This document shows, piece by piece, positions 371 through 22,394 of a stretch of DNA of 64,000 bases. The translations under genes were made by a program, and so were the position numbers. Under the pieces are notes generated by a model that had not been told where the DNA came from, made no database searches, and was given only the letters and a program-made list of their open reading frames with translations. Position 1 is the first letter of the stretch. Each line of letters opens with the position of its first letter. Origin of the DNA: Lachnospiraceae bacterium (GTDB taxonomy: Bacteria; Bacillota; Clostridia; Lachnospirales; Lachnospiraceae); the NCBI GenBank assembly GCA_014804265.1, contig JAAVAC010000021.1:700-64699 (forward strand), written 5' to 3'.

Positions 371-773
371 ATTAGGGATTCCGCTACTGATCTGTGCAAC
401 AAACTTTCCGGCAGGAATAATTTATTCTCTTATTGTCTGTATGAAGGATGACATAGTAGCAAAGAACACTCCACAATCGAAAATGAACACTTCCAACTGT
501 ACCGCCTGAAAGAGAGTTGTAGTCATCTCTCCACAAATTCCGATTGTTTTTCTTCTGTCAGGCTCCCAAACATACCTTTATAGCCTTTCTCCAATATCGG
601 AGTACCTTTTGCCACTTCTCACTCTACTTATTTTGGGCAAAACCCAATTTACCAACAATTCACTTCATGAAACATGTTCACAGCATAAAATCCTAAACTG
701 TTCTCAATCATCCCAAAACCAAACAGCATTTCGATGTCCAGTATAAGCCGGCATATCTCAATGCCCCACTATC

Positions 774-1403
774 CTAATCTCCATCCACTTCCTCCACCAC
801 AAGTAACAACACCCCTTCTTTCACACAAACTTCACTTTCCACTCCCAAAAACTCATTGCTGACTCCTACCGGATAATCCATCCCAAGCACAGCATCCGTA
901 AGAGGATATTTCAGATTCTTCAAAGTAACTCCCTTTGCCTCTCCGTCAAAAGCAAACACGGAAAGATACCCTTTTTTCTCTTCTCCAAATGTAATACTTC
1001 CATTTCTCACTGCCGTAATCATCACGTTTTTATGAAACAAAAACCCCTTTGCCCCTCTTTTCAAAAGCCACACAAGGCATTGGAAATTGGCAATGGTATG
1101 GGAAATCCTTCCACCCAGACCTCCATAAATATGAAAGGTCCTGTAGCCAAGCTCCATTCCCTGCCGCAAGGCCGCCAGCATATCTGTGTCATCCTTTTCC
1201 GGTGCAAGCCGTATCAAGTTGGAGTGCAGGGGACTTTGCTTTACAGAATCAAAATCCCCCAGCACCAGGTTTGGCGTCAGCTTCATATTCTTTAAATATT
1301 CAAAACCCCCGTCCACTCCGATTATATAATCGGTTTCCTTCGGCTTTAACTTGGGATAGTCAAATTCTCCTGCCCCTATAATATAACAAATGCCCTCTTC
1401 CAT
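774..1403 (-). CDS. thiamine diphosphokinase (thiamine pyrophosphokinase)
   Basis: ORF 774..1496 has YIIGAGEF, LVLGDFDS and EKDDTD motifs typical of TPK. Start moved to the internal ATG (MEEGICYIIGAG), which is preceded by an AAAGGA RBS. Confidence 0.8.
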   Translation of the reverse strand: MEEGICYIIGAGEFDYPKLKPKETDYIIGVDGGFEYLKNMKLTPNLVLGDFDSVKQSPLHSNLIRLAPEKDDTDMLAALRQGMELGYRTFHIYGGLGGRISHTIANFQCLVWLLKRGAKGFLFHKNVMITAVRNGSITFGEEKKGYLSVFAFDGEAKGVTLKNLKYPLTDAVLGMDYPVGVSNEFLGVESEVCVKEGVLLLVVEEVDGD

Positions 1404-1508
1404 TTTCTTATCCTTTCCCCAGCAGATATTCTTCCCATGCCCGATGATTTTTCCATATCCGGAGAAATCCGGTTCTGTTTCCCCTCTGCAATTCACGTTC
1501 CATAACCA

Positions 1509-3185
1509 TTACCTTGAAATTTCTTCCAAAACAACCGCCTGACAAGGCTGCAAAACAAGCCTTCCGCCAAAAGCCTCGGCTCCATCCATATTGGAAAGAA
1601 GCACCTTGTAGTTATCACTTGCTAACTCTAACTCCATGGCATCCTTACCAAAGTTAGCCGCTGCCAATACCCTTTTTTCATTCAGGCTCCGGTAATAAGC
1701 ATATATCTTCTCCTTATTCCCATAAGCCGGTTCAAAGTTGCCATAGGTAAACAACTCCTTATATTCCTCTGACTTTCTAAGGGCAATCAGCCTTTTATAG
1801 TAATTCAGCACAGATTCCTGATCCGCAAGCTCATCCTCCACATTCACCTGTCTGTAATTGGGATTTATCTTCAGCCATGGTTTCCCTGTGGTAAAGCCTG
1901 CCTGCTCTTTGCTGCTCCATTGCATAGGCGTCCTTGCATTATCCCTGCTATGCTTGTAACATACTTCCAGCGCTTCCTCTTTGGAACATCCTGCTTCTAA
2001 AGCAGTCTTATATTGATTTTTCGTATCAATATCATCATATTCCTCAATGCTTTCCATCCTGCAGTTCTGCATTCCGATTTCCTGTCCCTGATAGATAAAA
2101 GGAATTCCCCTTAACAGTATATTGACAGTAGCCAGCATTTTAAACCCATCTGTATTTTGAGCATAAGAAGGCAGATACGTATTGATCCCCCTCGGTTCAT
2201 CATGATTTTCAATAATGTTCGCTAAAAACCCGATTCCCTCACATCTTTTTTGAGACTCAAAAGTAATCTCCCTCCAAGCATCAAACTCTACTTCCTTAGC
2301 ATCATACCAGCCATGCTCTCCAAAGGTCAGCATATGGGCCGAGAAATCAAACATGGTGGAAAAATGGCCGTTTTCTCCTACAAATTCCTCCAGCTCCTCT
2401 TCTTTCATATTAAATACTTCCGCTACGGTAAAAGCCTGATATTTTTCAAAGGTAGCTTCCTTTAATTCCTCTAACAGCTCCCCTACTCCATCCACTTCTT
2501 CCACCATTTTAGTAGCCCTCACCAGCCCATCCGGACCGTCCGGCTCATAGGAAGGAAAATCCAGATCCTTCTTTATATTGATGATGGCATCAATCCGGAA
2601 GCCTGCCAGTCCTTTCTCCAGCCACCAGTTGACCATTTGAAACAATTCTTTTTTCATCTTTGGATTGTTCCAGTTCAAGTCCGGCTGTTCCTTGGCGAAA
2701 AAGTGCAGATAATAGAGCTCCGTTCCCTCTACCTTCTCCCATGCGCTTCCTCCAAAGTAAGAGCGGTAATTGCTGGGGGGATTTCCGTCCTTTCCTTTCC
2801 GGAAATAGAAATAATCCCCATACTCTCCTTCCGGGTCTGCCAATGCCTTTTGAAACCATTCATGCTGATCGGAGCAATGATTGATTACCAGGTCCATAAC
2901 AATCCCCATATCCCGTTTCTTTGCTTCCAAAAGCAGCTCATCAAACTCCTCCATGGTGCCGAATTTTGGATCGATTTTATAATAATCCGAAATGTCATAG
3001 CCCTGATCCACAAAGGGAGATTGATAAATAGGAGAAATCCAGATAATATCAATTCCCAAGTCCTTTAAATAATCCAGCTTTTCCATGATTCCCCGAATGT
3101 CTCCAATTCCGTCTCCATTTGTGTCATAAAAGCTCTTTGGATAAATTTGATACGCTACCTTTCCGTGCCACCATTTTTTTGTCAT
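1509..3185 (-). CDS. GH13 alpha-glucosidase / oligo-1,6-glucosidase family hydrolase
   Basis: 558 aa. The N-terminus WWHGKVAYQIYPKSFYDTNGDGIGDIRGI and the DLVINHCS and GFRIDAI blocks are characteristic of GH13 subfamily glucosidases. Confidence 0.9.
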   Translation of the reverse strand: MTKKWWHGKVAYQIYPKSFYDTNGDGIGDIRGIMEKLDYLKDLGIDIIWISPIYQSPFVDQGYDISDYYKIDPKFGTMEEFDELLLEAKKRDMGIVMDLVINHCSDQHEWFQKALADPEGEYGDYFYFRKGKDGNPPSNYRSYFGGSAWEKVEGTELYYLHFFAKEQPDLNWNNPKMKKELFQMVNWWLEKGLAGFRIDAIINIKKDLDFPSYEPDGPDGLVRATKMVEEVDGVGELLEELKEATFEKYQAFTVAEVFNMKEEELEEFVGENGHFSTMFDFSAHMLTFGEHGWYDAKEVEFDAWREITFESQKRCEGIGFLANIIENHDEPRGINTYLPSYAQNTDGFKMLATVNILLRGIPFIYQGQEIGMQNCRMESIEEYDDIDTKNQYKTALEAGCSKEEALEVCYKHSRDNARTPMQWSSKEQAGFTTGKPWLKINPNYRQVNVEDELADQESVLNYYKRLIALRKSEEYKELFTYGNFEPAYGNKEKIYAYYRSLNEKRVLAAANFGKDAMELELASDNYKVLLSNMDGAEAFGGRLVLQPCQAVVLEEISR

Positions 3186-4390
3186 AAGAAACTCCTTTCC
3201 ACTTTTCTGTTCAGACCTTCCACCGCACCTATCATCACCAACAGGATCAGTCCCAAATAAAAGGGAAACAGCTTATAGCTCACATGCTTTGCCAGAAATC
3301 CCAACAGGGGCGGCATAAAAGTGGTGCCCACATAGGCACATGCCATTTGAATCCCCATGATTCCCTGAGAATACTTACTTCCGAAATTGTCCGGTGTGGC
3401 ATGGAGCATGGAGGGATAAATAGGCGCACAGCCCAGCCCTATGAAAAAAAGCCCCAAAAGCTGTACCGTAAGTCCAAAGGGAAGCAATAAGAATACTACC
3501 CCCATGCCGGCAACTCCCTGCCCCAGACGCACCATCTGTCTGTTGGAAAGCTTTATGGTTAAAAATCCGGACAAGAATCTTCCAAAGGTAATTCCAAAAT
3601 AAAACAAAGCAATCCACTTTGCCGCCTGCTCAGGGAAAACTCCTTTTTCCATGACCAGATAGCTGCTGCCCCACAGCCCTGCGGAGGCTTCCAGGGCACA
3701 ATAACAGAAAAATCCCACTAATGCCTGCTTCGCTCCCTTTAACTTCAACATTCCCAAAATGCCCGGATTTACCTTTTCTTCCGTTTGATTTTTTCCCGTT
3801 TCACTCTCTTTTTCCTGTTCTTTTTTCTCTTCTGTTCCTTCCACTTTTTTCCACAGGGAAATGGAACAGAACAAACATACCACCAGGCAAAATTGAATCA
3901 GGCTGATCACTCCGTAACCAGACTGCCAGTTTCCCCCATCCCTAAGACAGAAGGAAATTATCACGGGACCTGTAGTTGCGCCGACTCCCCAAAAGCAATG
4001 GAGCCAGCTCATATGCCTTGCTTTATAATGAAGGGCCACAAAGTTATTTAATGCTGTATCCACGCTACCACCACCTAATCCTAAAGGAATTGCCAAAAAA
4101 CACAGCATCCAATATTCCTTACTTACGGAAAATCCCAAAAGGGCAACTGCCGTCATAAGCACACTGATTCCGGTAGTCCATCCCGTTCCCAGCTTTTTTA
4201 TGATCTTACTGCTAAACAGGCTGGAAACAATCGTCCCCCCTGAAATAATCATGGAAATAATTCCTCCATAGGAAATGGGAACATTCATTTCCTGATAAAT
4301 AGAAGGCCATGCCGAGCCCAAAAGGGAGTCCGGCAGCCCCAGACTGATAAATGCCAGATAAATAATAATAAGTAAAACCGTTAAAAACAT
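3182..4390 (-). CDS. MFS transporter
   Basis: 402 aa, about 12 hydrophobic segments split by a charged central loop (EEKKEQEKESETGK). Overlaps the glucosidase start by 4 nt. Confidence 0.8.
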   Translation of the reverse strand: MFLTVLLIIIYLAFISLGLPDSLLGSAWPSIYQEMNVPISYGGIISMIISGGTIVSSLFSSKIIKKLGTGWTTGISVLMTAVALLGFSVSKEYWMLCFLAIPLGLGGGSVDTALNNFVALHYKARHMSWLHCFWGVGATTGPVIISFCLRDGGNWQSGYGVISLIQFCLVVCLFCSISLWKKVEGTEEKKEQEKESETGKNQTEEKVNPGILGMLKLKGAKQALVGFFCYCALEASAGLWGSSYLVMEKGVFPEQAAKWIALFYFGITFGRFLSGFLTIKLSNRQMVRLGQGVAGMGVVFLLLPFGLTVQLLGLFFIGLGCAPIYPSMLHATPDNFGSKYSQGIMGIQMACAYVGTTFMPPLLGFLAKHVSYKLFPFYLGLILLVMIGAVEGLNRKVERSFL

Positions 4391-5415
4391 CTTTCTTCCC
4401 CTTCTTTCCTGATTTGTTTTTCCAACTCGTCCAAAGCAAGCTTTATCATTCCCTGCTCAAAGTCCTTTTCCAGATCATCCGAGAAAACCAGCTTTGCCTC
4501 ATACTGTCCTTGTAATGAATTTTCCACTGCTTCCTTCAGCCCTCTTTTGATTTCCTCCGTCCAGAAATCCCCATATAGTACAAAAAAATCCGGCGCCAGC
4601 ACACAAATGCAGATTACAAGGAGCTGTCCCATAGACTTTATTACCTGATATACGTTAGCATAATCTAACTCCTTCCAGGAGTAAGCAACGGGTATCCGGG
4701 AAAGCTCTCCCGCAAAGTTATGGACTCCTCTATAGATTTCTCCGTTAATGATGATTCCTGCTCCGGGGTCATAAATCCTCGGAAAATAGATACCCACCAT
4801 ATGGTCCGCCTCTCTGGAAATCCCATAGGAATAATATCCGATTACCGCCGCATTGATATCATTTTCAAAAATTACGGGCACTCCATATGTGTTTCGGTAA
4901 TGCTCCATGAATTCCCTTCCTACTATATCCGGATAATCATTGATGGTAATCATGCCGTCCACTTCTTCTCCCGGCAGTCCGAAAGCAATCAGCCCTGCTT
5001 TTTTCCCATATTTCTCAAATATCTCAGAAAACCAGGAATCAAAGCTGTTCACTTCCACTTTGGCAAAATACTTCTCTTTCCGCTCCACACACTGTCCCAG
5101 CAGATTGATGACCAAAAGCTGGATCAGGTTCTGGTCTTTCTTCTGATGTCCGTATATGATTACTGCGTACCGGTAGTCCTCATTAAAGATATATTGCAGC
5201 GAGGGACGACCTCCATTGGAGGGAATGTTCTCGCCTTTTTTGATTTCTCCGTTTTTTACCAGCTCTTCAAGCAGGGAATTTACTGTGACCACGCTGAGTT
5301 CTGTTTTGGCTGCAAGCTCTGGCTTGGTGGCCTTTCCCATAAGCTTTAGTTGTTTTCTTACGTTGTTTTTGTTGATTTCTTTCATTAGCAGGGTGTCTGC
5401 TTTCCTGTTTTTCAC
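4381..5415 (-). CDS. ROK family transcriptional regulator
   Basis: 344 aa. N-terminal winged-helix segment (ELAAKTELSVVTVNSLLEELVKNGEI) followed by a ROK sugar-kinase-like body. First gene of the MFS/GH13 operon. Confidence 0.8.
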   Translation of the reverse strand: MKNRKADTLLMKEINKNNVRKQLKLMGKATKPELAAKTELSVVTVNSLLEELVKNGEIKKGENIPSNGGRPSLQYIFNEDYRYAVIIYGHQKKDQNLIQLLVINLLGQCVERKEKYFAKVEVNSFDSWFSEIFEKYGKKAGLIAFGLPGEEVDGMITINDYPDIVGREFMEHYRNTYGVPVIFENDINAAVIGYYSYGISREADHMVGIYFPRIYDPGAGIIINGEIYRGVHNFAGELSRIPVAYSWKELDYANVYQVIKSMGQLLVICICVLAPDFFVLYGDFWTEEIKRGLKEAVENSLQGQYEAKLVFSDDLEKDFEQGMIKLALDELEKQIRKEGEERCF

Positions 5416-5677
5416 CCTTTGGCCTCCTTTCCTGTTTCCAGGCGCTTTCTGCTATTTTGTGCTTGTTTTTGTTGTTTGTTTTTCGCTTTCTGATTTTTTG
5501 TTTTTTCTTTTTCCTGTTGCTTTGTATTTATTTTAGCTTATCTTTTTCTCTTTGTAAAGATACTTTTTAAAGCTTCTTTTTAAAGCGGGTATGGGGCTGC
5601 ATTTTTTGTTCTATTCTAGGGTCTATAAGTGGTTTTGGATCCTGCTGCTTCTCCTATACTGTTTTATCTTTGCTTCC

Positions 5678-6310
5678 TTACTTTATACTATGATCCGATT
5701 CGTCAGCAAATAAGACCTTTAACGCATCTAACCATTTTTCAATATTTTGTTTTACAGTAATATCTCTTACTTTATCAATATTTAAATATTCTTCTTCAAA
5801 AGCACTACCTGCAATAGGAAAACATGAATAATCCCAGGCACCATCACCTGAATATATCATTCCATCCGTTATAACAGCTATAGCAATGGCTAAATAACCA
5901 TAATACAAACTTACTATGGCTGGTTGCCCCATTGTTCTTTTCACACTCCAAGAATATCCTATTTCTAGATTAGCCTCTATCTTTTCTTTCATAAATTGAA
6001 CATTCTTATTTACCTGCGCCTCTTCATTCCAAAACTCTTTATCCAGCTCTGTTAACTCATGATAGAATACATATACTTCACCTTCCTCATTCAAATTGAA
6101 CACTGTATAACAATTCTCCTTCGCCACCAAAGAAAGAGGATTCGCATGTACGCTATTATCAGCAGATACTTCTCTGGTAGTAATATCAATACCCTGCGAT
6201 ATCTTTTCCTTTTTCATAAATTCTTTAAATAGCTGAACAGAGTATTTAATTATCTCATCACATTCAGGCTTCTTTATCTTTGTTGGAAATACTTCAAAAC
6301 TCATACTCAT
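5678..6310 (-). CDS. hypothetical protein (no family recognised)
   Basis: Clean 210-aa ORF with an AGGAGA RBS. Its start overlaps the stop of a 32-codon upstream ORF (ATGA). Confidence 0.5.
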   Translation of the reverse strand: MSMSFEVFPTKIKKPECDEIIKYSVQLFKEFMKKEKISQGIDITTREVSADNSVHANPLSLVAKENCYTVFNLNEEGEVYVFYHELTELDKEFWNEEAQVNKNVQFMKEKIEANLEIGYSWSVKRTMGQPAIVSLYYGYLAIAIAVITDGMIYSGDGAWDYSCFPIAGSAFEEEYLNIDKVRDITVKQNIEKWLDALKVLFADESDHSIK

Positions 6311-6543
6311 TTTTCTTCATCTCCTACAGCTTCTGCTCTTTCTTTTGCTACCTTAGTTGTTGCTCCGGCTGATTTATCCCTACTGTTTTGTCTCACTTCT
6401 GCCATACAATCTCTAACCCGCCCTTCAGCTATAAAAATTAATTCATTATGTTCTCATAATCCTGTAATTCATGAAAAATATTTCCACAAAAACAGTATTT
6501 CCTACGATTCGATAGAGCATAAAATATCTATGGGATAAAAAGT

Positions 6544-6801
6544 TTATACGTCTGTATCTTGATACTTTCCATGTTCCCTGGATTTCTTCAGTTTTTCAAG
6601 CATCTCTTCTTCTGCCATCGGCGCATATGGATTAGCCTCTGCTGTCTGCCTTTTTATCTCAAAAGGAAATCCATTCGCCGCAACCGCCTGTATCAAAAAC
6701 ATTCTTATAGCAGTTGTTGTATCAGTTCCCAAATCTCTAAACAACGAATCTGATTTTTTCTTTAAATCATCCTCTACTCTTACTTGAATTGTACTAGCCA
6801 T
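6544..6801 (-). CDS. RelB/DinJ family antitoxin
   Basis: MASTIQVRVEDDLKKKSDSLFRDLGTDTTTAIRMFLIQAVAANGFPFEIK matches the DinJ ribbon-helix-helix pattern. Start set at the ATG preceded by GGAGGTG. Confidence 0.75.
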   Translation of the reverse strand: MASTIQVRVEDDLKKKSDSLFRDLGTDTTTAIRMFLIQAVAANGFPFEIKRQTAEANPYAPMAEEEMLEKLKKSREHGKYQDTDV

Positions 6802-6918
6802 GAATAGCACCTCCATTCCTCTTTTATTATAATGCCATCTCATTGCTAATTCAATACAATTGTACTGTTTTTGCACAATGAAAACTTATTCAATGCAAAG
6901 TATCTGACCGTCAGCTTA

Positions 6919-7107
6919 TCATCTACGCATCTCTACAACATAAGCGCTCAACCCACTTGAAAAGGCAAAATGATTTTCATTCAAAATCTCACATGATTGA
7001 ATCAAATCCCCCTTCTTGGCATTGTAACAGAATATTACTTCATTATTGCACGAATCAATTACAATTAAGTCCGAGTCATATACAACAACAAATTTGTCAT
7101 CCCACAT
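6919..7107 (-). CDS. hypothetical 62-aa ORF, possibly a gene fragment
   Basis: ORF track only. Beta-strand-like repeats. Directly preceded by a 55-codon ORF (7114..7281) of similar character. Confidence 0.25.
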   Translation of the reverse strand: MWDDKFVVVYDSDLIVIDSCNNEVIFCYNAKKGDLIQSCEILNENHFAFSSGLSAYVVEMRR

Positions 7108-7316
7108 AATTATTTAGGCTGGTTTCGTGACAAAACAGGTTGGATGGAATATGCCACAATCTAATATTAAATAAATCAATGGTGTATGCAAGATTTTCTC
7201 TATGGATTTATCTCTTTGGATTTTTAATAATAAATCATCCTTTATTGCAAAAAATATCTGCTTTTCAAATGAATATGTCATGCCTCGTTTCCATACTCCT
7301 TACTATTTCCACCTTC

Positions 7317-9140
7317 TCAATCTACAAAAGCCATCTCCAACAATTCCGAAGCCACTTTCCTATCCTTTACTCTTATCAGATTATCCCACGCATCTTCCTT
7401 TCCCAGCAGATTCATTCCTCCATGCCATACTAAAGAACCATCAATCACCGCAAAATGCTCCATATCCTCCTCTGCAGTCTTAACGTTAATCCCCACCTCC
7501 TTCATCTGCTCCATAAGCGTATACAAAAATGCTGCATTTCCATAAGCTGCACTTTCCGGATTTTTTGTCATCACCGTTACTTTGACACCTGCCTCCTGTC
7601 TGGGCTTTATAAGATAAAGAAAGCGTGCGATTTTTTCCCTTGTGATTCCCGGACTGGAAATCACAATTTCCTGTTCCGCCTCAACCAGGTCTTGCTCAAA
7701 GATATCCATATAATTTCCGGAATCGTAAATGGCATTCACGTCCTGTTTATTTTCAATCGAATCAGACATCATGCGGAATCCAATCTTTTTGTATGTCCGA
7801 AGCCGCTTCAAATACATATTGTCAAAAACGGGAACATGCGAATCAATATAATCATATACAATAACGTCCCTCTTTCCTTCATAGTCCCGATTCAATCTTC
7901 CTACATATTGCTCCAAACGTCCGGTAAATGAAACAGGTGATGCCAATATAAGCGTATCCAGTCTGGGATAATCAAATCCTTCCCCTATCTTCTGCCCTGT
8001 AGCAACAAGTATCAACGATTTATCACGAGGCACATCTTTCAGTTGTCTTCTTATGGTTTCATTTTCTTTATTGGAATTATCTCCATACAAAATAAAAGCA
8101 TAATCGGCAGTCCCCTGGACATTATCATAAATAAATTTCGCATGCTCCTTATATTTCGTGAGTACTACGGGTGTTCTGCCCTTTTTTATGCATTCCCTTA
8201 TATCATCCAGAATCTGCGCATTTCTCACATCGCTATTGCTCACAAGAACATACGCCTCATTGATATCATTTTTATTGGCAGCAGTACTGATCACCCGGGT
8301 ATATCGAGGGATCACTAAATGGTCTATACCTTGCTCCACTGTTCTTTCTAATGCTGTATATTGGTGCCGCACCGGTCCTAACAGCATATAATTGATTTTT
8401 TCAAGCTGATCGCTTCTCATAGGTGTGGCAGAGACTCCATAAACATACTTTGCATTTACCTTTTTCAAGATTTCCTGCGCTGTAGCGGAAGCTGCATGAT
8501 GACATTCATCCATAATAACCATTCCATAGGAATTCAGTCTCTCATGAAAAGCGCCTTTTTTGTATAAGGAGCCAATCATAGCAATATCAACAATGCCTGT
8601 CATCGTATCTTTTCCACCTTTTAGTGTTCCAATAACGCTTGTACGTTTCTTTACCCGGCCCGTCTTTGTTTCATATGCTGGCGGTTCTTCATCCACTCTT
8701 AAGAAGCGGTTTAATTCATCCTCCCACTGTGATATGAGATCCGTACTCTCCAGCAAAATCAGAGTATTTACTTTTCTCTTTGCAATTAAATAACTGCATA
8801 CTACCGTCTTGCCGAAAGCAGTTGCCGCACTGAGAATTCCACAATCAAACTTCAGCAGGCGCTGGGCTGCCAGGTCCTTCTGCATTTTTAATTCTCCCTG
8901 AAACAAGACACGAACCGGCCGGCCTTTTTCTCTTCGGTCTTCTATATCATAATCAATTTCCGACTTCTCGCATTTATGGATTACTGCTTCCAGCAATCCT
9001 CTTGGAATCTTAATATAGCCCTCTATATCCATCCCTAAATAAATCATACTGAAATTATAATAATTGGAATATCCCAGACGCTTGTTCTTATAAAAAACAG
9101 GATTATCAAACGTGGCCATACAGCGTATCTGATTTTGCAA
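7317..9140 (-). CDS. SF2 (DExH) helicase with C-terminal PLD-like domain; C-terminal part of a frameshifted AEP-helicase gene
   Basis: Helicase motifs are present: AATAFGKT (I), MDECHH (II), SATP (III), QYVGRLNR (VI). The C-terminal ~170 aa follow a PLD-fold pattern ending EHFAVIDGSLVWHGGMNLLG. The ORF opens with TTG inside the upstream ORF. Confidence 0.8.
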   Translation of the reverse strand: MQNQIRCMATFDNPVFYKNKRLGYSNYYNFSMIYLGMDIEGYIKIPRGLLEAVIHKCEKSEIDYDIEDRREKGRPVRVLFQGELKMQKDLAAQRLLKFDCGILSAATAFGKTVVCSYLIAKRKVNTLILLESTDLISQWEDELNRFLRVDEEPPAYETKTGRVKKRTSVIGTLKGGKDTMTGIVDIAMIGSLYKKGAFHERLNSYGMVIMDECHHAASATAQEILKKVNAKYVYGVSATPMRSDQLEKINYMLLGPVRHQYTALERTVEQGIDHLVIPRYTRVISTAANKNDINEAYVLVSNSDVRNAQILDDIRECIKKGRTPVVLTKYKEHAKFIYDNVQGTADYAFILYGDNSNKENETIRRQLKDVPRDKSLILVATGQKIGEGFDYPRLDTLILASPVSFTGRLEQYVGRLNRDYEGKRDVIVYDYIDSHVPVFDNMYLKRLRTYKKIGFRMMSDSIENKQDVNAIYDSGNYMDIFEQDLVEAEQEIVISSPGITREKIARFLYLIKPRQEAGVKVTVMTKNPESAAYGNAAFLYTLMEQMKEVGINVKTAEEDMEHFAVIDGSLVWHGGMNLLGKEDAWDNLIRVKDRKVASELLEMAFVD

Positions 9141-10260
9141 ACGGGGGTTTCAGATTTAATGCATCGATATAGATCCCATCTGCAAGAACGATATGTAATT
9201 TCCCCGTCACATCAGATGCTGCAAAATCATCCTGTTTTTTCCACGGTTTGAGACGCTTTGCAGTATTTAAATAGTGGGAAGTTCCATGCCGGATAAATAG
9301 TTCCCCTTGCCATTTTGTAATATATTGTTCCACTTCATCCTGGGACAATTTTCTTGTTTGAAGCAGTCGTTCCCACTGGTTTGGATACGCATTCCAATTT
9401 TCATCTACAAAAGCACTGTTTCCATTTTTGAGAGCCTGTCCCTGAAGAGGTAAGGCAATCAGGTTTCCGATAGAATTGATTTCATCCTGGGATGGATACA
9501 TGCGGTCATAATAACGAAAGGATTTTAGATTAATGGTAGTTGCCCCTTTATCAAGAAGCAAAAAGCCAAAATTTCTCGCTGTTTCAGCCGAAATCGCTTT
9601 CCGGAAGAAAATCCATATATGTGCGCCTCTCCCTGAACGGGAACGCTCTACAAGGGCATCAATCCCATTCTGACTGCATATTAAGCGGAGCGCATCCACC
9701 TCATCATGCCAGGCCCCATCCTCATTTGCGAAATCCTTCTTTTCCGCATCCTTTTCATGATTATCAAAATCGAATACCAGAAACCTGCAGGTTCCATCCA
9801 AAAGCAGCGGATATACGCCTATCACATCCGTCCTATCCTCTCGGTAACCAACCAGATGGTTCACAAGAATATCTGGTGTCAGCTTCATCCAGCTTTTAGA
9901 TTCACAATCTTCACAATACCTCTTTTCACCCTTTTGCTTCGGGCACAGCGCATGATTCCAGCGGTTATTGCATTGTGGATAATAATTGCCGTTTTTAGCT
10001 CTCCTTGCAAATACATCCTCCCTTCCCCAGAACATAGAAAAAAATCGGGTCGCCACATTTTTGTCAATATACTGCTGAACAATTCTGGCACCCTGGTCTA
10101 ATTCATATTCCTCTGCCCTGAAAGGAGTATCTTGAAATACTTCACTGGCAGCATATGGTATATTTTCTTTTTTAAGAAGTTCCCTGAGTTCTTTGTTTTC
10201 TCTTTGTAACTCTCTGACTATTTTCCTAAGGGAGTCCAAATTATAAGATTCTATATTCAT
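9106..10260 (-). CDS. archaeo-eukaryotic primase (AEP / Prim-Pol) domain protein; N-terminal part of the same frameshifted gene
   Basis: AEP motifs are present: FLVFDFDNH (DxD), SGRGAHIWIFF (sGxGxH), YYDRMYPSQD...LIALPLQG. A Cys-rich segment (CNNRWNHALC...YCEDC) lies upstream. N-terminal coiled coil. Confidence 0.75.
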   Translation of the reverse strand: MNIESYNLDSLRKIVRELQRENKELRELLKKENIPYAASEVFQDTPFRAEEYELDQGARIVQQYIDKNVATRFFSMFWGREDVFARRAKNGNYYPQCNNRWNHALCPKQKGEKRYCEDCESKSWMKLTPDILVNHLVGYREDRTDVIGVYPLLLDGTCRFLVFDFDNHEKDAEKKDFANEDGAWHDEVDALRLICSQNGIDALVERSRSGRGAHIWIFFRKAISAETARNFGFLLLDKGATTINLKSFRYYDRMYPSQDEINSIGNLIALPLQGQALKNGNSAFVDENWNAYPNQWERLLQTRKLSQDEVEQYITKWQGELFIRHGTSHYLNTAKRLKPWKKQDDFAASDVTGKLHIVLADGIYIDALNLKPPFAKSDTLYGHV

Positions 10261-10701
10261 TTACATCTCCATCCACTGTACAAATGCCGTCTTATCAGAA
10301 CTATTATACCCGGCATTCCTATAAAAATTTAAAGTTTCCTCTTCTTTCGATCCGGTGAGCAGCATCATTTTATAGCAGTTATTGCTCTCTGCAATCTGCC
10401 TCGCATAATTTAAGCACGCAGTAGCATAACCTTTCTTACGATAGTCCTTATGGGTCACCACATTCTCGATAAATGCATATGGCCTCACATTCCTTGTTAA
10501 ATTCGGTATTATCACGCAGACACAGGAGGCCACGATTTTGCCCTCCGCTTCGCAAACGATAAGATGATGGTTTTCGTCTCCAATAATATAATTCCAAGTC
10601 TTATTTAATCGCTCCGACTCTTCTGGTACACTTGTTTCATGAAGACACAAATATAGCTGTAAAATTTCTTTCAAATCATTTTTATCCGCTTCTCTAATCA
10701 T
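10261..10701 (-). CDS. GNAT family N-acetyltransferase
   Basis: 146 aa. The acetyl-CoA binding pattern VVTHKDYRKKGYATACL is typical of GNATs. Its stop codon directly abuts the ATG of the AEP gene. Confidence 0.85.
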   Translation of the reverse strand: MIREADKNDLKEILQLYLCLHETSVPEESERLNKTWNYIIGDENHHLIVCEAEGKIVASCVCVIIPNLTRNVRPYAFIENVVTHKDYRKKGYATACLNYARQIAESNNCYKMMLLTGSKEEETLNFYRNAGYNSSDKTAFVQWMEM

Positions 10702-10808
10702 AATAACCCCCGCAATTCGTTTTTCATTTTTTATTCACATTGTTATTATCAACTCTGCTCGACTTAACAAGATCATTTTCCCTTATATCCACTGCTTCAA
10801 GAAATCAC

Positions 10809-11096
10809 CTACAGCTTCTTCGTAAAGCAAATAATCCTATTTACCTCTTCAAATCCCACATGTAAATGAAATCTCAAACTATCTTCATTCATTATCTCAC
10901 AATCACTTGCAAATTCTCCACACCCTTGTTCCTGTGCCCATTTCTGACAGTTCTTTAACAATTCTTTTGCAATCCCCCTTTTTCTATATTTTTCCATTAC
11001 AAAGATACCCTCCAGGTAGCCTACCGGACTGCTGTCTGTGCCTTCTACATAGTCATGCCGCAATCCGCATGCATTCTCTAACATTCCCACCTGCAT
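10809..11096 (-). pseudogene. truncated AAC(6')-I-like aminoglycoside N-acetyltransferase (C-terminal ~2/3 only)
   Basis: RHDYVEGTDSSPVGYLEGIFVMEKYRKRGIAKELL...EFASDCEIMNEDSLRFHLHVGFEE fits my memory of AAC(6')-I C-terminal halves. The N-terminal ~50 aa have no room because the upstream MGMT gene overlaps the ORF start. Confidence 0.5.
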
Positions 11097-11386
11097 TTTT
11101 TCATATCCACATGGGTATCATCCTTCCATGCCACACCCTCCTCAAGCAGCAAAGCCTTTTGCTCATAAAAATGGGGCGCCAGCCTTCCTGCATGATTCAC
11201 AACACGATGGCAGGGATATTCTCCATAATATTCCGCCATGCTAAGGACTCTGCCCACAAGCCTTGCGTTTTTATCCCTTCCAATCAGCTTTGCTATCTGC
11301 CCATAGGAAGCAACCTTTCCTTCCGGTATTTCTTCCACTACCGATAGTATTTCGTAAATCAATTCTTCTGTAAGAATCCCAGACAT
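11078..11386 (-). CDS. MGMT family protein (short, DNA-binding/active-site domain only)
   Basis: About 102 aa from MSGILTEE. VASYGQIA and PCHRVV motifs of the O6-alkylguanine transferase C-terminal domain. Confidence 0.75.
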   Translation of the reverse strand: MSGILTEELIYEILSVVEEIPEGKVASYGQIAKLIGRDKNARLVGRVLSMAEYYGEYPCHRVVNHAGRLAPHFYEQKALLLEEGVAWKDDTHVDMKKCRWEC

Positions 11387-11402
11387 ATTCCCACTCCTTA
11401 CC

Positions 11403-11936
11403 TTATAAAGCTGTTCCCCGGACAGGAATAAAAAAGGCTGACATATCCACTTTCTCCATGGAAAGAAGCTGCACCTTCTTATCAATCCCGCCCGCATAGC
11501 CCGTCAGGCTTCCGCCCGCTCCAACGACTCTATGGCATGGTATGATCAGAGAAATAGCATTGTGCCCCACCGCAGAGCCCACTGCCTGGGCAGACATTTT
11601 TTTAAGACCCTTTTTCTTTGCAATTTTCTCTGCAATTTCTCCGTAAGTCATTGTCTTTCCAAAAGGAATCTGAAGCAGGATTTCCCACACGGCTTTCCGG
11701 AAAGGCGTTGTTTTCATAACCAACGGCGGGATAAAACCCAGGTCTCTTCCACAGAAATAAATATCCAGCCATTGGCGTGCCTGTTCAAAAACCGGCAGCT
11801 CCTTTTGCTCACAGCCCTCTGCTAAAGTGGCACCAAAATATTTCTGTCCGTCGAACCATAGGCCTGTCAAGGCCTCCCCGTCGCTGGCAAGAGTAATCCC
11901 TCCAAGGGGTGAGTCATAGTGATTTGTATATTCCAT
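11403..11936 (-). CDS. ogt: methylated-DNA--protein-cysteine methyltransferase
   Basis: 177 aa. Full two-domain layout with the IIPCHRVVGAGGSLTGYAGG active site. Confidence 0.85.
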   Translation of the reverse strand: MEYTNHYDSPLGGITLASDGEALTGLWFDGQKYFGATLAEGCEQKELPVFEQARQWLDIYFCGRDLGFIPPLVMKTTPFRKAVWEILLQIPFGKTMTYGEIAEKIAKKKGLKKMSAQAVGSAVGHNAISLIIPCHRVVGAGGSLTGYAGGIDKKVQLLSMEKVDMSAFFIPVRGTAL

Positions 11937-12807: not shown

Positions 12808-13896
12808 TTAAATCCTGTCTGCCGCCTGCTTCTTACGGAAAATCTCTTTGAGCGACTCCGTATAAGGCGCTCTGGCAATCCCATATTCCGTGACGATACC
12901 TGCAATCAAATCATGGTCTGTCACATCAAAGGCCGGATTATATACCTTGATTCCTTCCGGTGCCATCCTCTTTTCATACCACATATCCGTCACCTCATGC
13001 TGGGGACGCTGCTCAATTGTAATTTCTGCTCCCGTTGGTGTCTCCAGGTCAATTGTGGAGGTAGGGGCACAAACATAGACAGGTACGTGATAACGGGCTG
13101 CCACGGCTGCTACCACCGAAGTTCCGATCTTGTTGGCAGTGTCACCGTTTGCCGCCACCCGGTCACAGCCTACGAACACTGCATTTACCCATCCGTTTCT
13201 CATAACTGCCCCAGACATGTTATCACAAATCAAAGTCACATCCACACCGGAGGCTGACAACTCATAAGCCGTCAGTCTTGCTCCCTGCAGAAGGGGCCTT
13301 GTTTCATCCGCAAAGACACGGAAATGATATCCCCTCTCCTGTCCCAGATAAATGGGTGCCGTGGCAGTTCCGTACTTACAGGTAGCAAGCTGTCCCGCAT
13401 TGCAGTGGGTTAAAATGCCGTCCCCTTCCTTTACCAGAGTCAGTCCGTATTCCCCAATAGCTTTACAGACACGAATATCCTCTTCCTTCATGGCGATGGC
13501 TTCTTTCTTTAATGCTTCTTTAATCTGTGCAACGGGCTTTTGGGCATTTTCCACACAAACCTGCTCCATCCTATTTAATGCCCAGGACAGGTTCACCGCC
13601 GTAGGTCTTGCCGAATTCAGGTATTCCTTCTGACGGCCGAATTCCTTGTAAAAAACCTCATAATCTTCCGTATCCACCTGTTTTGCAAGCAGATAAATCC
13701 CAAAGGCCGCTGCAATGCCGATAGCCGGCGCTCCCCGGACCTTCAGCAGATAAATGGCATTCCAGATTTCCTCTCCCGTCTGCAGGGATATGATTTCCGC
13801 TTTTCCCGGAAGCTTTGTCTGGTCAAGCAGCTTCAGTGCGCTGTTTTCATCATCCAGTTCTACTGTTTCATATTCCATAATGCTTTTATCGCTCAT
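12808..13896 (-). CDS. mtnA: S-methyl-5-thioribose-1-phosphate isomerase
   Basis: eIF-2B/MtnA family blocks (VRGAPAIGIAAAFG, THCNAGQLAT, VGCDRVAANGDTANKIGT). Start at MSDKSIMEY after AAGGAGA. Confidence 0.85.
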   Translation of the reverse strand: MSDKSIMEYETVELDDENSALKLLDQTKLPGKAEIISLQTGEEIWNAIYLLKVRGAPAIGIAAAFGIYLLAKQVDTEDYEVFYKEFGRQKEYLNSARPTAVNLSWALNRMEQVCVENAQKPVAQIKEALKKEAIAMKEEDIRVCKAIGEYGLTLVKEGDGILTHCNAGQLATCKYGTATAPIYLGQERGYHFRVFADETRPLLQGARLTAYELSASGVDVTLICDNMSGAVMRNGWVNAVFVGCDRVAANGDTANKIGTSVVAAVAARYHVPVYVCAPTSTIDLETPTGAEITIEQRPQHEVTDMWYEKRMAPEGIKVYNPAFDVTDHDLIAGIVTEYGIARAPYTESLKEIFRKKQAADRI

Positions 13897-22166: not shown

Positions 22167-22394
22167 GCAAAAGAGGGATGTGGGTGGATTCCAGGCGGTG
22201 TTTTTGATGGAGTTTTTCCTAAACAGCCTGATTTAAGGTGTTGGTACCGGTCGGGTCGGCATATAGCGCCGTCCGTGGCGCAATATGCCTAAAATTGCCG
22301 TCCATGGCAATTTTCCCCTGGGTTCGTGGACAGGCTGTTAAGGAAAAGCACCATCAAAAACAATGCCTGGAATCCACCCACATCCCTCTTTTGC
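22167..22394. repeat. 228-nt foldback: 30-bp perfect inverted repeat extended to ~64-nt arms around a 100-nt centre
   Basis: 22167-22196 (gcaaaagagggatgtgggtggattccaggc) is the exact reverse complement of 22365-22394. The next 34 nt inward pair with 5 mismatches. The centre holds small hairpins with GTCCGT and GTCCAT loops. Confidence 0.85.

What the first reader, a model, noticed from the sequence alone, without database searches (positions are those of the whole stretch)
7317..10260. AEP primase-polymerase, SF2 helicase and PLD-like domain in one ~980-aa gene: a conflict-system-type protein in a small accessory islet
The N-terminal ORF carries all three AEP motifs (FDFD, SGRGAHIW, YYDRM...PLQG) and a Cys-rich module. 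The C-terminal ORF carries complete DExH helicase motifs and a PLD-fold tail. The neighbourhood is accessory: GNAT upstream, orphan antitoxin and small hypothetical ORFs downstream, with no replication or plasmid genes. I recall NCBI annotating similar fusions as TOTE conflict system AEP-domain proteins. That label is from memory and unverified, and no experimentally defined function is known to me.
Basis: partly seen in the sequence, partly recalled or inferred. Interest (0 to 1): 0.65.

Follow-up and report, generated by a model that had tools for sequence, protein, structure and literature searches.

The report
Broken primase-helicase accessory gene
This is a frameshifted copy of a widespread but untested gut-Clostridia gene that fuses a DNA primase-polymerase, an XPB-like helicase and a disabled nuclease-like domain; it looks like mobile "conflict" cargo, not a housekeeping or phage gene.

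Summary
Window 7317-10260 (minus strand) carries two overlapping ORFs that become one 980-aa protein if one C is removed from a C5 run (9143-9147). All ~97%-identical relatives have C4 there.

Domains, in order:
- coiled coil
- 4-Cys module
- CAPP-like AEP primase-polymerase (Pfam PF22548 "AEP-TOTE", E 2.6e-74)
- XPB/UvsW-like SF2 helicase
- PLD-fold tail

The tail has the Nuc/Zucchini fold but lacks the catalytic His and Lys, so it is probably not a nuclease.

The family is large: at least 590 species genomes, mostly Lachnospiraceae, usually intact at ~980 aa. It has no conserved partner gene. No TPR-OB or TBP gene lies nearby, so this is not a canonical TOTE operon. CRISPR is adjacent in only 1 of 80 loci. 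The family is absent from viral contigs.

Neighbours are toxin-antitoxin, Abi, STAND and Fic genes, plus large serine recombinases at island edges.

Every copy sampled from this species is damaged, each in a different way. dN/dS of 0.14 nevertheless shows selection until recently.

Best reading: a stand-alone conflict or defence-type cargo gene, now inactivated. The function is inferred, not shown. The main rival is a helper for mobile-element replication or transposition.

The parts
7317..10260 (-). Whole gene. It encodes a 980-aa AEP primase-polymerase / SF2 helicase / PLD-fold fusion, interrupted by a +1 frameshift.
9106..10260 (-). ORF 1 (384 aa): residues 1-372 of the protein, followed by 12 out-of-frame codons.
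7317..9140 (-). ORF 2 (607 aa): residues 374-980 of the protein. The TTG 'start' is really internal Leu374.
9143..9147 (-). C5 homopolymer that causes the frameshift. All close relatives have C4.
   Evidence: (one letter left out at 9143 in all 4 runs)
10168..10239 (-). N-terminal long helix (aa 8-31), a putative coiled coil.
   Evidence: model secondary structure; conserved
9886..9984 (-). Four-cysteine module (C97, C106, C116, C119; CX8CX9CX2C), a putative Zn-binding primase accessory element.
   Evidence: all four Cys invariant in 54 sequences; lies inside the Pfam AEP-TOTE match
9325..10050 (-). AEP primase-polymerase domain (aa 71-312), with motifs I D164xD166, II S207..H214 and III D252.
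   Evidence: PF22548, E 2.6e-74; PADLOC PrimPol, 4.4e-57; CAPP Prim-Pol 7nqd/7nqe, TM 0.76-0.82
8895..9213 (-). Domain preceding the helicase core (aa ~350-455). It is included in the structural alignments to XPB and UvsW and is probably a DRD-like DNA-binding domain.
   Evidence: UvsW/XPB matches begin near aa 350
7770..8894 (-). SF2 helicase core (aa 456-830): motif I GKT 483-485, motif II DECHH 584-588, motif III SAT 610-612, a RED-like R615-x-D617, and motif VI Q784..R791.
   Evidence: XPB/Ssl2, archaeal XPB, UvsW
7320..7742 (-). PLD-fold C-terminal domain (aa ~840-980) with a degenerate HKD motif. The catalytic His and Lys are absent; D940 and G947-G-x-N950 are retained.
   Evidence: PLDc_2, 27.4 bits; alignment to Zucchini; NucT, Nuc, Zucchini; also the non-catalytic TrmBL2 and FAM83
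10261..10701 (-). GNAT acetyltransferase gene abutting the start codon with a 0-nt gap. In a conspecific strain this slot holds a MazE/PemK cassette instead.
10809..11096 (-). 5'-truncated remnant of an AAC(6')-type aminoglycoside acetyltransferase gene.
   Evidence: matches model positions 50-140 of 140
6918..7281 (-). Two small ORFs (55 and 62 aa). They are the broken remnant of a 154-aa gene that is intact in a conspecific strain.
6544..6876 (-). RelB/DinJ-family antitoxin gene with no recognisable toxin partner.
5678..6310 (-). 210-aa ORF with no match in any family library. It marks the end of the islet, before the conserved ROK/MFS genes.

Best explanation
What it is. The locus is an inactivated copy of a stand-alone, horizontally mobile accessory gene. 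The family is catalogued as Pfam AEP-TOTE and as 'non-CRISPR CAPP-helicase' proteins.

Shown here. The intact protein has, in order: an N-terminal helix; a 4-Cys module; a CAPP-like AEP primase-polymerase with all catalytic residues; an XPB/UvsW-like SF2 DNA translocase-helicase with all ATPase motifs; and a PLD-fold domain that has lost the catalytic His and Lys.

Inferred mechanism.
- The XPB-like motor binds and opens or translocates on DNA.
- The tethered primase-polymerase then starts and extends DNA on the exposed strand.
- The pseudo-PLD domain acts as a dimerisation or DNA-binding module rather than as a nuclease.

Inferred role. Gene context suggests that this unscheduled priming and unwinding is aimed at foreign or replicating DNA, which would make it a single-gene defence or conflict function. 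No partner gene is required.

State in this strain. A one-base insertion (C4 to C5) splits the gene. Other strains of the same species carry different lesions, so the gene is being lost in this lineage after a period of purifying selection.
For: Architecture and catalytic residues.

PLD fold without the HKD motif.

No conserved partner. Across 80 species-level loci, the commonest neighbour cluster occurs in only 15 of 80 and is a generic ABC ATPase.

Conflict-type neighbours:
- AbiEi/AbiEii directly upstream in 5 loci, plus two further AbiEii neighbours
- Abi_2/AbiD, ToxN, ParE, PemK and Fic
- Schlafen-like AlbA_2/HATPase_c_4 proteins
- STAND-TPR NTPases
- SocA/Panacea

Strain-variable islet. 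The upstream GNAT is swapped for MazE/PemK in conspecific strains. Many MAG contigs break within 1 kb of the gene.

Not phage-borne. There is no full-length homolog in 2.9 million IMG/VR contigs or in GenBank phages.

Not a plasmid replicase. Distant plasmid homologs sit on plasmids that have their own typed replicons.

Precise presence/absence of the gene next to a large serine recombinase in L038.

Precedent for PrimPol domains in defence proteins. PADLOC's DRT UG10 models match aa 155-295.

Recent loss. There are five different lesions among conspecific copies, yet dN/dS is 0.14, the same as the flanking genes.
Against: - No member of this family has been tested experimentally. No paper on it was found in seven literature searches.
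- The defence reading rests on gene neighbourhood only, and there is no background control for neighbour enrichment.
- No complete known defence system is recognised by PADLOC models.
- Primase-plus-helicase is the classic make-up of mobile-element replication modules.
- 11 of 80 loci have a large serine recombinase within 7 kb, directly downstream of the gene in seven.
- Distant homologs are the last gene of TniB-TniQ transposon operons or lie in conjugative-plasmid leading regions.
- An effector without a nuclease leaves the killing or blocking step unexplained.
- The frameshift could be an assembly error, since reads of this strain were not available.
Confidence: 0.5

Rival explanations
1. 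Mobile-element helper. The protein primes and unwinds DNA for the element that carries it. Candidate roles are replication of an excised serine-recombinase island, second-strand or gap synthesis during replicative transposition, or establishment after conjugative transfer. It would benefit the element rather than defend the host.
For: - A 4.76-kb block made of this gene plus a large serine recombinase is 95-97.5% identical at nucleotide level between Blautia, Dorea and an unclassified MAG, and 92% identical in Parablautia. The block ends about 50 nt before the recombinase stop codon.
- A recombinase lies within 7 kb in 11 of 80 loci.
- In Sphingobium pTB1 a 35%-identical homolog is the last, overlapping gene of a TniB-TniQ operon. 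In Sinorhizobium a TniQ gene lies directly upstream.
- In an Agrobacterium conjugative plasmid the homolog sits among ParB-N, ArdC-like zincin and DUF736 genes.
- Zabrady et al. [quoted passage not shown]
Against: - The helicase is SF2 and XPB-like, not one of the hexameric SF3, SF4 or SF6 types usual for replicative primase-helicases.
- 69 of 80 loci have no recombinase within 7 kb.
- In L038 a second recombinase copy lacks the gene precisely, so the recombinase element does not need it.
- The island between two recombinases in L039 holds toxin-antitoxin, kinase, STAND and IS66 genes. It has no origin, relaxase or other replication genes.
- In the window and its conspecifics the gene sits in a fixed chromosomal slot with no recombinase or transposase.
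- The plasmids that carry distant homologs have other typed replicons.
- The Tni and leading-region contexts concern homologs that are only ~35% identical and lack the PLD tail.
Confidence: 0.3
2. Host DNA repair or damage-tolerance enzyme. The PrimPol domain would reprime or perform translesion synthesis, coupled to an XPB-like motor. The analogy is with XPB-Bax1 and with PrimPol repair polymerases.
For: - The best structural matches of the helicase are NER/TFIIH XPB and archaeal XPB, which pairs with the Bax1 nuclease, and UvsW.
- In this species the gene lies next to two Ogt/MGMT-type alkyl-transferase genes.
- MGE-derived PrimPols can carry out repair reactions (PMC11724360 abstract).
Against: - The MGMT neighbourhood is specific to this species. 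Other contexts are unrelated.
- The distribution is patchy and strain-variable, transfer is horizontal, and disruption is frequent: 7 of 80 species representatives and all conspecific copies. This is not the pattern of a core repair gene.
- No repair genes recur among the neighbours.
Confidence: 0.08
3. CRISPR adaptation accessory, that is, a 'CAPP-helicase' that makes or processes prespacers for Cas1-Cas2.
For: - The AEP domain matches the CRISPR-associated PrimPol models and structures.
- Zabrady et al. 2021 define a CAPP-Helicase type.
- One related locus, L073, has a 38-repeat CRISPR array starting about 300 nt downstream of the gene.
Against: - There is no CRISPR array in the 64-kb window and no Cas Pfam family in any ORF scanned between 3182 and 11936.
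- Only 1 of 80 related loci has an array within 10 kb.
- No Cas1 or Cas2 family appears among the commonest neighbour families.
- The NCBIfam equivalog for CRISPR-associated PrimPol A1 scores 92 bits against a cutoff of 200.
Confidence: 0.03
4. The frameshift is a sequencing or assembly error in a homopolymer, and the gene is intact and functional in this strain. This concerns the state of the gene, not its function.
For: - The lesion is a single extra base in a C run, a typical error type.
- All relatives have C4.
- There is no other stop codon or lesion in the 980 codons.
- dN/dS of 0.14 shows no sign of long-term neutral decay.
Against: - No reads of this strain were found; the best run shares only 39% of k-mers. 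The error therefore cannot be demonstrated.
- Every other conspecific copy examined is independently damaged: a 203-bp deletion; a 5' truncation; a 5.7-kb insertion with deletions; and a 2.59-kb deletion.
- Loss of this gene is therefore the norm in this species.
- The islet also contains other gene remnants.
Confidence: 0.3

Closest known systems
CRISPR-associated Prim-Pol (CAPP), especially the 'CAPP-Helicase' type and its non-CRISPR relatives (Zabrady et al. 2021, PMC8211822; structures 7NQD/7NQE/7NQF/7P9J)
   Same: - The AEP catalytic domain is the closest solved relative by sequence (E 2.6e-9) and by fold (TM 0.76-0.82 over the CAPP domain).
- A PrimPol followed by a helicase is the architecture those authors call most prevalent among non-CRISPR homologs.
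   Different: - No CRISPR-Cas is nearby.
- The score is below the NCBIfam equivalog cutoff.
- This protein has an N-terminal 4-Cys module instead of TPR and PriCT.
- It has an extra PLD-fold tail.
- Only the TPR-type CAPP has been studied biochemically.
TOTE (TPR, OB, TBP, Effector) conflict systems of Aravind, Iyer and Burroughs 2022; Pfam PF22548 AEP-TOTE
   Same: The AEP domain is a full-length, very strong match to the Pfam model named after these systems (250 bits, model positions 4-229 of 230).
   Different: - The defining TPR-OB(CSD) and TBP genes are absent from the window islet. Neither family appears in the lists of commonest Pfam families among the immediate neighbours at 80 related loci.
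- The gene stands alone.
- The original description could not be read. The definition is taken from a citing preprint.
XPB/Ssl2/Rad25 and archaeal XPB-Bax1; phage T4 UvsW
   Same: - These are the best sequence and structure matches for aa ~350-830.
- The protein has DExH motifs and a conserved R-x-D after motif III, at the position of XPB's RED motif.
- Like XPB-Bax1, the motor is paired with a nuclease-fold module.
   Different: - Identity is only 15-18%.
- It is fused to a primase-polymerase.
- The nuclease-fold partner is PLD-type, catalytically degenerate, and fused rather than a separate subunit.
- The XPB thumb motif was not examined.
PLD-plus-SF2-helicase restriction and defence proteins: SauUSI (7CLG), PADLOC mREase_IV, PbeA, Mokosh MkoC, DISARM DrmC/DrmD
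   Same: The helicase and PLD regions hit these models at domain level. All share the overall logic of a translocase tethered to a PLD-fold domain.
   Different: - Those proteins have an intact HKD nuclease site; this one does not.
- None carries a primase-polymerase.
- Matches are partial and far from full length.
DRT7 / UG10 PrimPol-reverse transcriptase defence proteins
   Same: - They contain an AEP PrimPol domain that PADLOC models align to aa 155-295 here.
- They are a single-polypeptide defence in which a PrimPol is part of the effector. Abstracts of bioRxiv 10.64898/2026.04.18.719102 and PMC12439943 were seen.
   Different: - The partner domain there is a reverse transcriptase, not an SF2 helicase.
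- The match is weak (E ~1e-5).
Replicative primase-helicases of plasmids, satellites and integrated elements
   Same: A primase-polymerase is fused to a helicase. The gene is carried by mobile DNA, sometimes next to the element's recombinase.
   Different: - The helicase class is SF2, not SF3, SF4 or MCM.
- The gene is not the replicon of the plasmids that carry distant homologs.
- It is dispensable for the recombinase element.

Membership tests
AEP (archaeo-eukaryotic primase) superfamily / Pfam PF22548 AEP-TOTE | Profile match above the curated cutoff over the whole domain | tested here: met
   250.1 bits against a cutoff of 27; model positions 4-229 of 230
AEP (archaeo-eukaryotic primase) superfamily / Pfam PF22548 AEP-TOTE | Catalytic motifs I (DxD), II (sGxGxH) and III (hD) conserved | tested here: met
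   D164, D166, S207, S209, G212, H214 and D252 are invariant in 54 homologs. The fold matches the CAPP Prim-Pol domain.
AEP (archaeo-eukaryotic primase) superfamily / Pfam PF22548 AEP-TOTE | Primase and polymerase activity | not testable with these tools
   Requires biochemistry.
TOTE conflict system (TPR, OB, TBP, Effector) | Adjacent TPR-OB (cold-shock/S1) fusion protein | tested here: not met
   No such domain in window ORFs 3182-11936. Neither family appears in the 25 commonest-family lists for 250 immediate neighbours at 80 loci. The only TPR protein seen is a STAND NTPase without an OB fold, in a few Blautia/Dorea islands.
TOTE conflict system (TPR, OB, TBP, Effector) | Adjacent TBP-domain protein | tested here: not met
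   Same searches. Partners encoded elsewhere in the genome could not be checked.
CRISPR-associated Prim-Pol (CAPP) | Genomic association with a CRISPR array and cas1/cas2 | tested here: not met
   No array in the window. 1 of 80 related loci has an array within 10 kb.
CRISPR-associated Prim-Pol (CAPP) | NCBIfam equivalog NF040561 (PrimPol type A1) cutoff | tested here: not met
   92.1 bits against a cutoff of 200
SF2 helicases, XPB/UvsW-like branch | Walker A, DExH, motif III and motif VI arginines | tested here: met
   G483-K484-T485, D584-E585-C586-H587-H588, A611-T612, and Q784/R788/R791 are invariant. ResIII scores 63.6 bits.
SF2 helicases, XPB/UvsW-like branch | Closest fold is XPB; RED-type motif after motif III | tested here: met
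   Foldseek top hits are XPB/Ssl2, archaeal XPB and UvsW, with E 1e-17 to 1e-14. R615 and D617 are invariant and align with the ERDD of S. tokodaii XPBII.
SF2 helicases, XPB/UvsW-like branch | XPB thumb (ThM) insertion | not tested
   Not examined.
PLD-superfamily nucleases (Nuc/Zucchini type) | PLD fold | tested here: met
   PLDc_2 scores 27.4 bits against a cutoff of 27. The tail model has pLDDT 80. Foldseek hits are NucT, Nuc (TM 0.67) and Zucchini.
PLD-superfamily nucleases (Nuc/Zucchini type) | HxK(x)4D(x)6GSxN catalytic motif with the nucleophilic His | tested here: not met
   In the profile alignment to Zucchini, the catalytic His aligns with a variable residue (M933 here, T in the consensus) and the Lys aligns with H935. 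Only D940 and G947-G-x-N950 are kept.
Replicative primase-helicase of a plasmid or phage | Encoded in a phage or plasmid as its replication module | tested here: not met
   No plasmid hit reaches 60% identity. The plasmid homologs inspected sit on plasmids with other typed replicons; the Sphingobium record has none typed. No full-length phage or IMG/VR homolog was found.
Known anti-phage systems in PADLOC-DB v2 | Full-length match to a system's protein set | tested here: not met
   Only domain-level partial hits: PrimPol, PbeA, mREase_IV, MkoC and Cas3.

The most novel reading that the evidence does not exclude
The intact family is a new type of single-protein immunity in which DNA synthesis, rather than cleavage, is the effector.
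- An XPB-like motor opens invader or replication-intermediate DNA.
- The tethered primase-polymerase lays down unscheduled primers or DNA. These could stall or derail the invader's replication, or could feed other immune pathways.
- A catalytically dead PLD domain acts as the sensor or dimerisation module.
- Recurrent independent inactivation within one species would then reflect the cost of such an enzyme to its host.
Probability: 0.22. Interest if true: 0.75.

Novelty: new member of a known kind. Interest (0 to 1): 0.45.

Why it matters
The family is abundant in human and animal gut Clostridia. It matched at least 590 species-level genomes, and the AEP domain alone defines about 400 clusters at 50% identity with E <= 1e-30. 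It is nevertheless known only from a Pfam name and a one-line mention in a CAPP paper, and no member has been tested.

This analysis narrows what to test:
- The protein works alone, with no TOTE partners and no CRISPR.
- Its motor is XPB-like.
- Its 'nuclease' is probably dead.
- It travels either as a cassette in toxin-antitoxin/Abi-rich islets or as a compact two-gene unit with a serine recombinase.

If it proves to be a defence protein, it would show a primase-polymerase used as an immune effector without a nuclease. If it is a mobile-element helper, it would be an unusual SF2-based replication or transposition aid.

The copy in this window is itself of low value, because it is broken.

Tried and rejected
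- Programmed frameshift or phase variation at the C run. Rejected: all relatives are in frame with C4, and a 4-5 nt tract is too short for phase variation (the tract-length argument rests on general knowledge). A +1 slip on CCC-C would give the correct protein, but nothing indicates that this is used.
- Active PLD nuclease effector. Rejected on the Zucchini alignment and on conservation.
- Canonical TOTE operon. Rejected: no TPR-OB or TBP partner was found.
- CRISPR linkage. Rejected for this locus.
- Prophage origin. Rejected. The single 'Bacteriophage sp.' hit, MT836552, is a 9.7-kb fecal contig that ends inside the gene.
- Flanking repeats, att sites or terminal inverted repeats around the window islet. 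None were found.
- Promoter and terminator scans. Uninformative: counts fell within about one to 1.3 standard deviations of the shuffled means.
- Reading the original TOTE description (Aravind et al. 2022). The paper is not held.
- Literature searches for an experimental study of this fusion. Seven searches found none, and a recent domain-centric defence screen does not mention it.
- Finding reads of the source strain. The best run shares only 39% of k-mers.

Full report
**1. What is in the sequence**

On the minus strand, ORF 9106-10260 (384 aa) and ORF 7317-9140 (607 aa) overlap by 35 nt. The overlap contains the run CTGAAACCCCCGTTTGCA, and the five C's lie at 9143-9147. Deleting one C joins the ORFs into a 980-aa protein with no other stop codon.

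The repaired junction peptide, LNLKPRLQNQIRCM, is invariant in full-length homologs. Five loci that are ~97% identical at nucleotide level have C4 at this position. Contigs from four metagenome runs show the same single-base difference at 9143.

**2. Domains**

- Pfam finds PF22548 'TOTE conflict system, Archaeo-Eukaryotic Primase domain' at aa 71-312 (E 2.6e-74). It also finds ResIII/DEAD at aa 470-614, a weak Helicase_C match at aa 687-791, and PLDc_2 at aa 857-974 with 27.4 bits, just above its cutoff of 27.
- PADLOC's CRISPR-associated PrimPol model scores 4.4e-57. The other PADLOC hits (PbeA, type IV restriction helicase, MkoC, Cas3, DRT-UG10) are partial, domain-level matches.
- NCBIfam's CRISPR PrimPol A1 equivalog scores 92 bits against a cutoff of 200.
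- The following residues are invariant across 54 homologs: four cysteines (C97, C106, C116, C119), AEP residues D164, D166, S207, S209, G212, H214 and D252, and helicase residues G483-K484-T485, DECHH 584-588, A611-T612, R615, D617, Q784, R788 and R791.
- An AlphaFold model of the whole protein has mean pLDDT 71.6. Its helicase module matches XPB/Ssl2, archaeal XPB (the partner of the Bax1 nuclease) and T4 UvsW, with E 1e-17 to 1e-14. Its AEP domain matches the CAPP Prim-Pol domain with TM 0.76-0.82 normalised to the target.
- A separate model of aa 826-980 has pLDDT 80. It matches NucT, Nuc (TM 0.67) and Zucchini. It also matches non-catalytic PLD-like domains in TrmBL2 and FAM83.
- In a profile alignment to Zucchini, the catalytic His of the HxK motif aligns with a variable position (M933 here). 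The catalytic Lys aligns with H935. Only D940 and the GGxN element are conserved.

The tail therefore has the PLD fold but is very probably not a PLD nuclease. H946 is present in at least 90% of homologs and is unexplained.

**3. The family**

A search of 5.8 billion proteins returned the maximum number of candidates. The best 120 are nearly all 968-1006 aa, have the same architecture, and are 66-79% identical to the query; about ten are shorter. Those that carry a name come from Lachnospiraceae or Clostridiales MAGs and are called only 'DEAD/DEAH box helicase'.

In one-genome-per-species GTDB contigs, at least 590 stretches encode a relative. The best 80 are almost all Lachnospiraceae or other Clostridia. 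Of those 80, 69 are intact at 950 aa or more and 7 are disrupted away from contig ends.

The AEP domain alone finds about 400 clusters at 50% identity with E <= 1e-30. Complete proteins among them are mostly 940-1030 aa.

Distant homologs (34-36% identity) occur on plasmids of the Bacillus cereus group, Acinetobacter and Rhizobiaceae. The proteobacterial ones stop near aa 830 and so lack the PLD tail.

Phage records match only the helicase part. IMG/VR viral contigs hold no full-length relative.

**4. Context**

In the window the gene sits in a low-GC islet. On one side are two Ogt/MGMT-like genes, and on the other a ROK regulator and an MFS transporter. A GNAT gene abuts its start codon with no gap. 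Further upstream lies a 5'-truncated AAC(6')-like remnant. Downstream are the broken remains of a 154-aa gene, a RelB/DinJ antitoxin with no toxin, and an orphan 210-aa ORF.

Conspecific loci keep the same chromosomal slot but swap the cargo. L007 and L018 carry MazE/PemK where the window has GNAT.

I clustered the neighbours within 7 kb at the 80 species-level loci. No partner is conserved: the commonest cluster occurs in 15 of 80 loci and is a generic ABC ATPase. The recurring neighbours are:
- large serine recombinases (11 loci, directly downstream on the same strand in seven)
- AbiEi/AbiEii (directly upstream in five loci)
- Schlafen-like AlbA_2/HATPase_c_4 proteins
- Abi_2/AbiD, ToxN, ParE, PemK, Fic and GNATs
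- STAND-TPR NTPases and SocA/Panacea

No TPR-OB or TBP family appears in the commonest-family lists, and only one locus has a CRISPR array within 10 kb.

**5. Mobility**

A 4.76-kb block made of the gene plus a large serine recombinase is 95-97.5% identical at nucleotide level between Blautia acetigignens, Blautia sp., an unclassified MAG and Dorea hominis, and 92% identical in Parablautia. It starts about 135 nt upstream of the gene. It ends about 50 nt before the recombinase stop codon, which is typical of an element edge.

In L038 a second recombinase copy has the same upstream and downstream sequence but lacks the gene precisely. The segment between two recombinases in L039 carries Panacea toxin-antitoxin, IS66, a Ser/Thr kinase, a STAND NTPase and this gene. 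It has no replication or transfer genes.

In the distant proteobacterial branch the homolog is the last gene of a TniB-TniQ operon in Sphingobium. It follows TniQ in Sinorhizobium. It lies among ParB-N, ArdC-like and DUF736 genes in an Agrobacterium plasmid, and it follows HigBA in Acinetobacter.

**6. State of the gene in this species**

Besides the window's frameshift, other conspecific copies carry four further lesions:
- a 203-bp deletion (window 9950-10148) in L018 and run X2
- replacement of codons 1-77 by a MazE/PemK cassette in L007-L009
- a ~5.7-kb insertion plus deletions in L059
- a 2,590-bp deletion (7311-9900) in a high-depth contig of run X1

The L007-L009 copy keeps an open frame from codon 78, so it may not be dead. 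Even so, dN/dS between the window copy and the L007 copy is 0.14, within the range of the flanking chromosomal genes (0.04-0.21). The gene was therefore under purifying selection until recently and is now being lost repeatedly.

This makes a genuine frameshift plausible. Without reads of this strain, an assembly error cannot be excluded.

**7. Interpretation**

Shown:
- the architecture
- the catalytic-residue conservation in the primase and helicase
- the degenerate PLD site
- the stand-alone, horizontally mobile and strain-variable nature of the gene
- the absence of TOTE partners, CRISPR and phage carriage

Inferred:
- The XPB-like motor opens or tracks DNA so that the tethered primase-polymerase can initiate synthesis.
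- The pseudo-PLD domain serves dimerisation or DNA binding. PLD nucleases act as dimers (established knowledge), and non-catalytic PLD folds such as TrmBL2 bind DNA.

The biological role is not established. Gene context favours a conflict or defence function (confidence ~0.5). A mobile-element helper role, in replication, transposition or establishment, is a serious rival (~0.3). Repair (~0.08) and CRISPR adaptation (~0.03) are unlikely.

**8. Comparison with what is known**

- The closest described entities are the non-CRISPR relatives of CAPP with a fused helicase. Zabrady et al. 2021 mention them but did not study them.
- The Pfam AEP-TOTE domain comes from Aravind et al. 2022. TOTE stands for TPR, OB, TBP, Effector, as quoted in PMC12458937.
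- The gene is a member of the AEP-TOTE domain family. It is not a member of a TOTE system as defined, not a CAPP in the genomic sense, and not a PLD nuclease.
- No experimental paper on this fusion was found.

**9. Verdict**

The gene is a new, and here broken, member of a catalogued but functionally untested family. Interest is moderate: the family deserves an experiment, but this particular copy does not.

Noticed in passing
window 10809-11096 (-): The 95-aa ORF is the C-terminal two-thirds of an AAC(6')-type aminoglycoside 6'-N-acetyltransferase. It matches NCBIfam AAC_6p_group_E at model positions 50-140 of 140 with 147.8 bits. It is a 5'-truncated remnant of a resistance gene, and it overlaps the end of the neighbouring Ogt-like ORF.
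   Followed up: partly
window 11078-11936 (-): Two Ogt/MGMT-type ORFs lie in tandem and overlap. The first (177 aa) has both domains. The second (139 aa) has only the DNA-binding/active-site domain. The same pair is present in conspecific loci.
   Followed up: no
window 6918-7281 (-): The 55-aa and 62-aa ORFs are the broken remains of a 154-aa gene of unknown function. That gene is intact in L007 at 13295-13759. Together with the other remnants, this makes the islet look degenerate.
   Followed up: partly
window 5678-6876 (-): A RelB/DinJ antitoxin gene (TIGR02384, 57.5 bits) has no recognisable toxin. About 230 nt further on lies a 210-aa ORF with no match in Pfam, NCBIfam or PADLOC. This could be an orphan antitoxin or an unrecognised toxin-antitoxin pair.
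   Followed up: no
L038 9865-14623; L039, L047, L049, L040, L032: A compact 4.76-kb unit (this gene plus a large serine recombinase) is 95-97.5% identical at nucleotide level between Blautia, Dorea and an unclassified MAG, 92% in Parablautia and 85% in a second Blautia (L032). The motif GTTGGGACA occurs about 45 nt upstream of the gene and again near the right end, inside the 3' end of the recombinase gene. It may be related to an att site or a recombinase binding site.
   Followed up: partly
L101 (Sphingobium pTB1) 670-8262; L100 (Sinorhizobium pMl1) 4673-8310: In these plasmids the AEP-helicase homolog (35% identity, no PLD tail) is the last, overlapping gene of a TniB-TniQ transposition operon in Sphingobium. 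In Sinorhizobium it directly follows TniQ. This suggests a primase-helicase recruited by Tn5053/Tn7-like transposons.
   Followed up: no
L073 13226-17246: One related locus, labelled as an Anaerolineaceae MAG, has a CRISPR-like array of about 38 repeats. The array starts about 300 nt downstream of the homolog. This is the only CRISPR-adjacent case among the 80 loci.
   Followed up: no
L038 5293-7605 (-), L047, L039, L049: A 770-aa STAND (nSTAND/NB-ARC) NTPase with C-terminal TPR repeats lies upstream of the gene on the opposite strand in several Blautia and Dorea islands. It is full-length in some and fragmentary in others. Abi and unknown cassettes are swapped in between it and the gene.
   Followed up: partly
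window 22197-22364 (-): A full-length TwoAYGGAY RNA motif (Rfam RF01731, 95 bits) is present.
   Followed up: no
window 60519-60693: An imperfect tandem repeat of a 36-nt unit (4.2 copies, 80% matches) is present, probably inside a coding region.
   Followed up: no
window 9950-10148 and 7311-9900: Population variants were seen in metagenome contigs of the same species. One is a 203-bp deletion in the 5' part of the gene. The other is a 2,590-bp deletion that removes most of the gene, in a contig at ~80x depth.
   Followed up: yes
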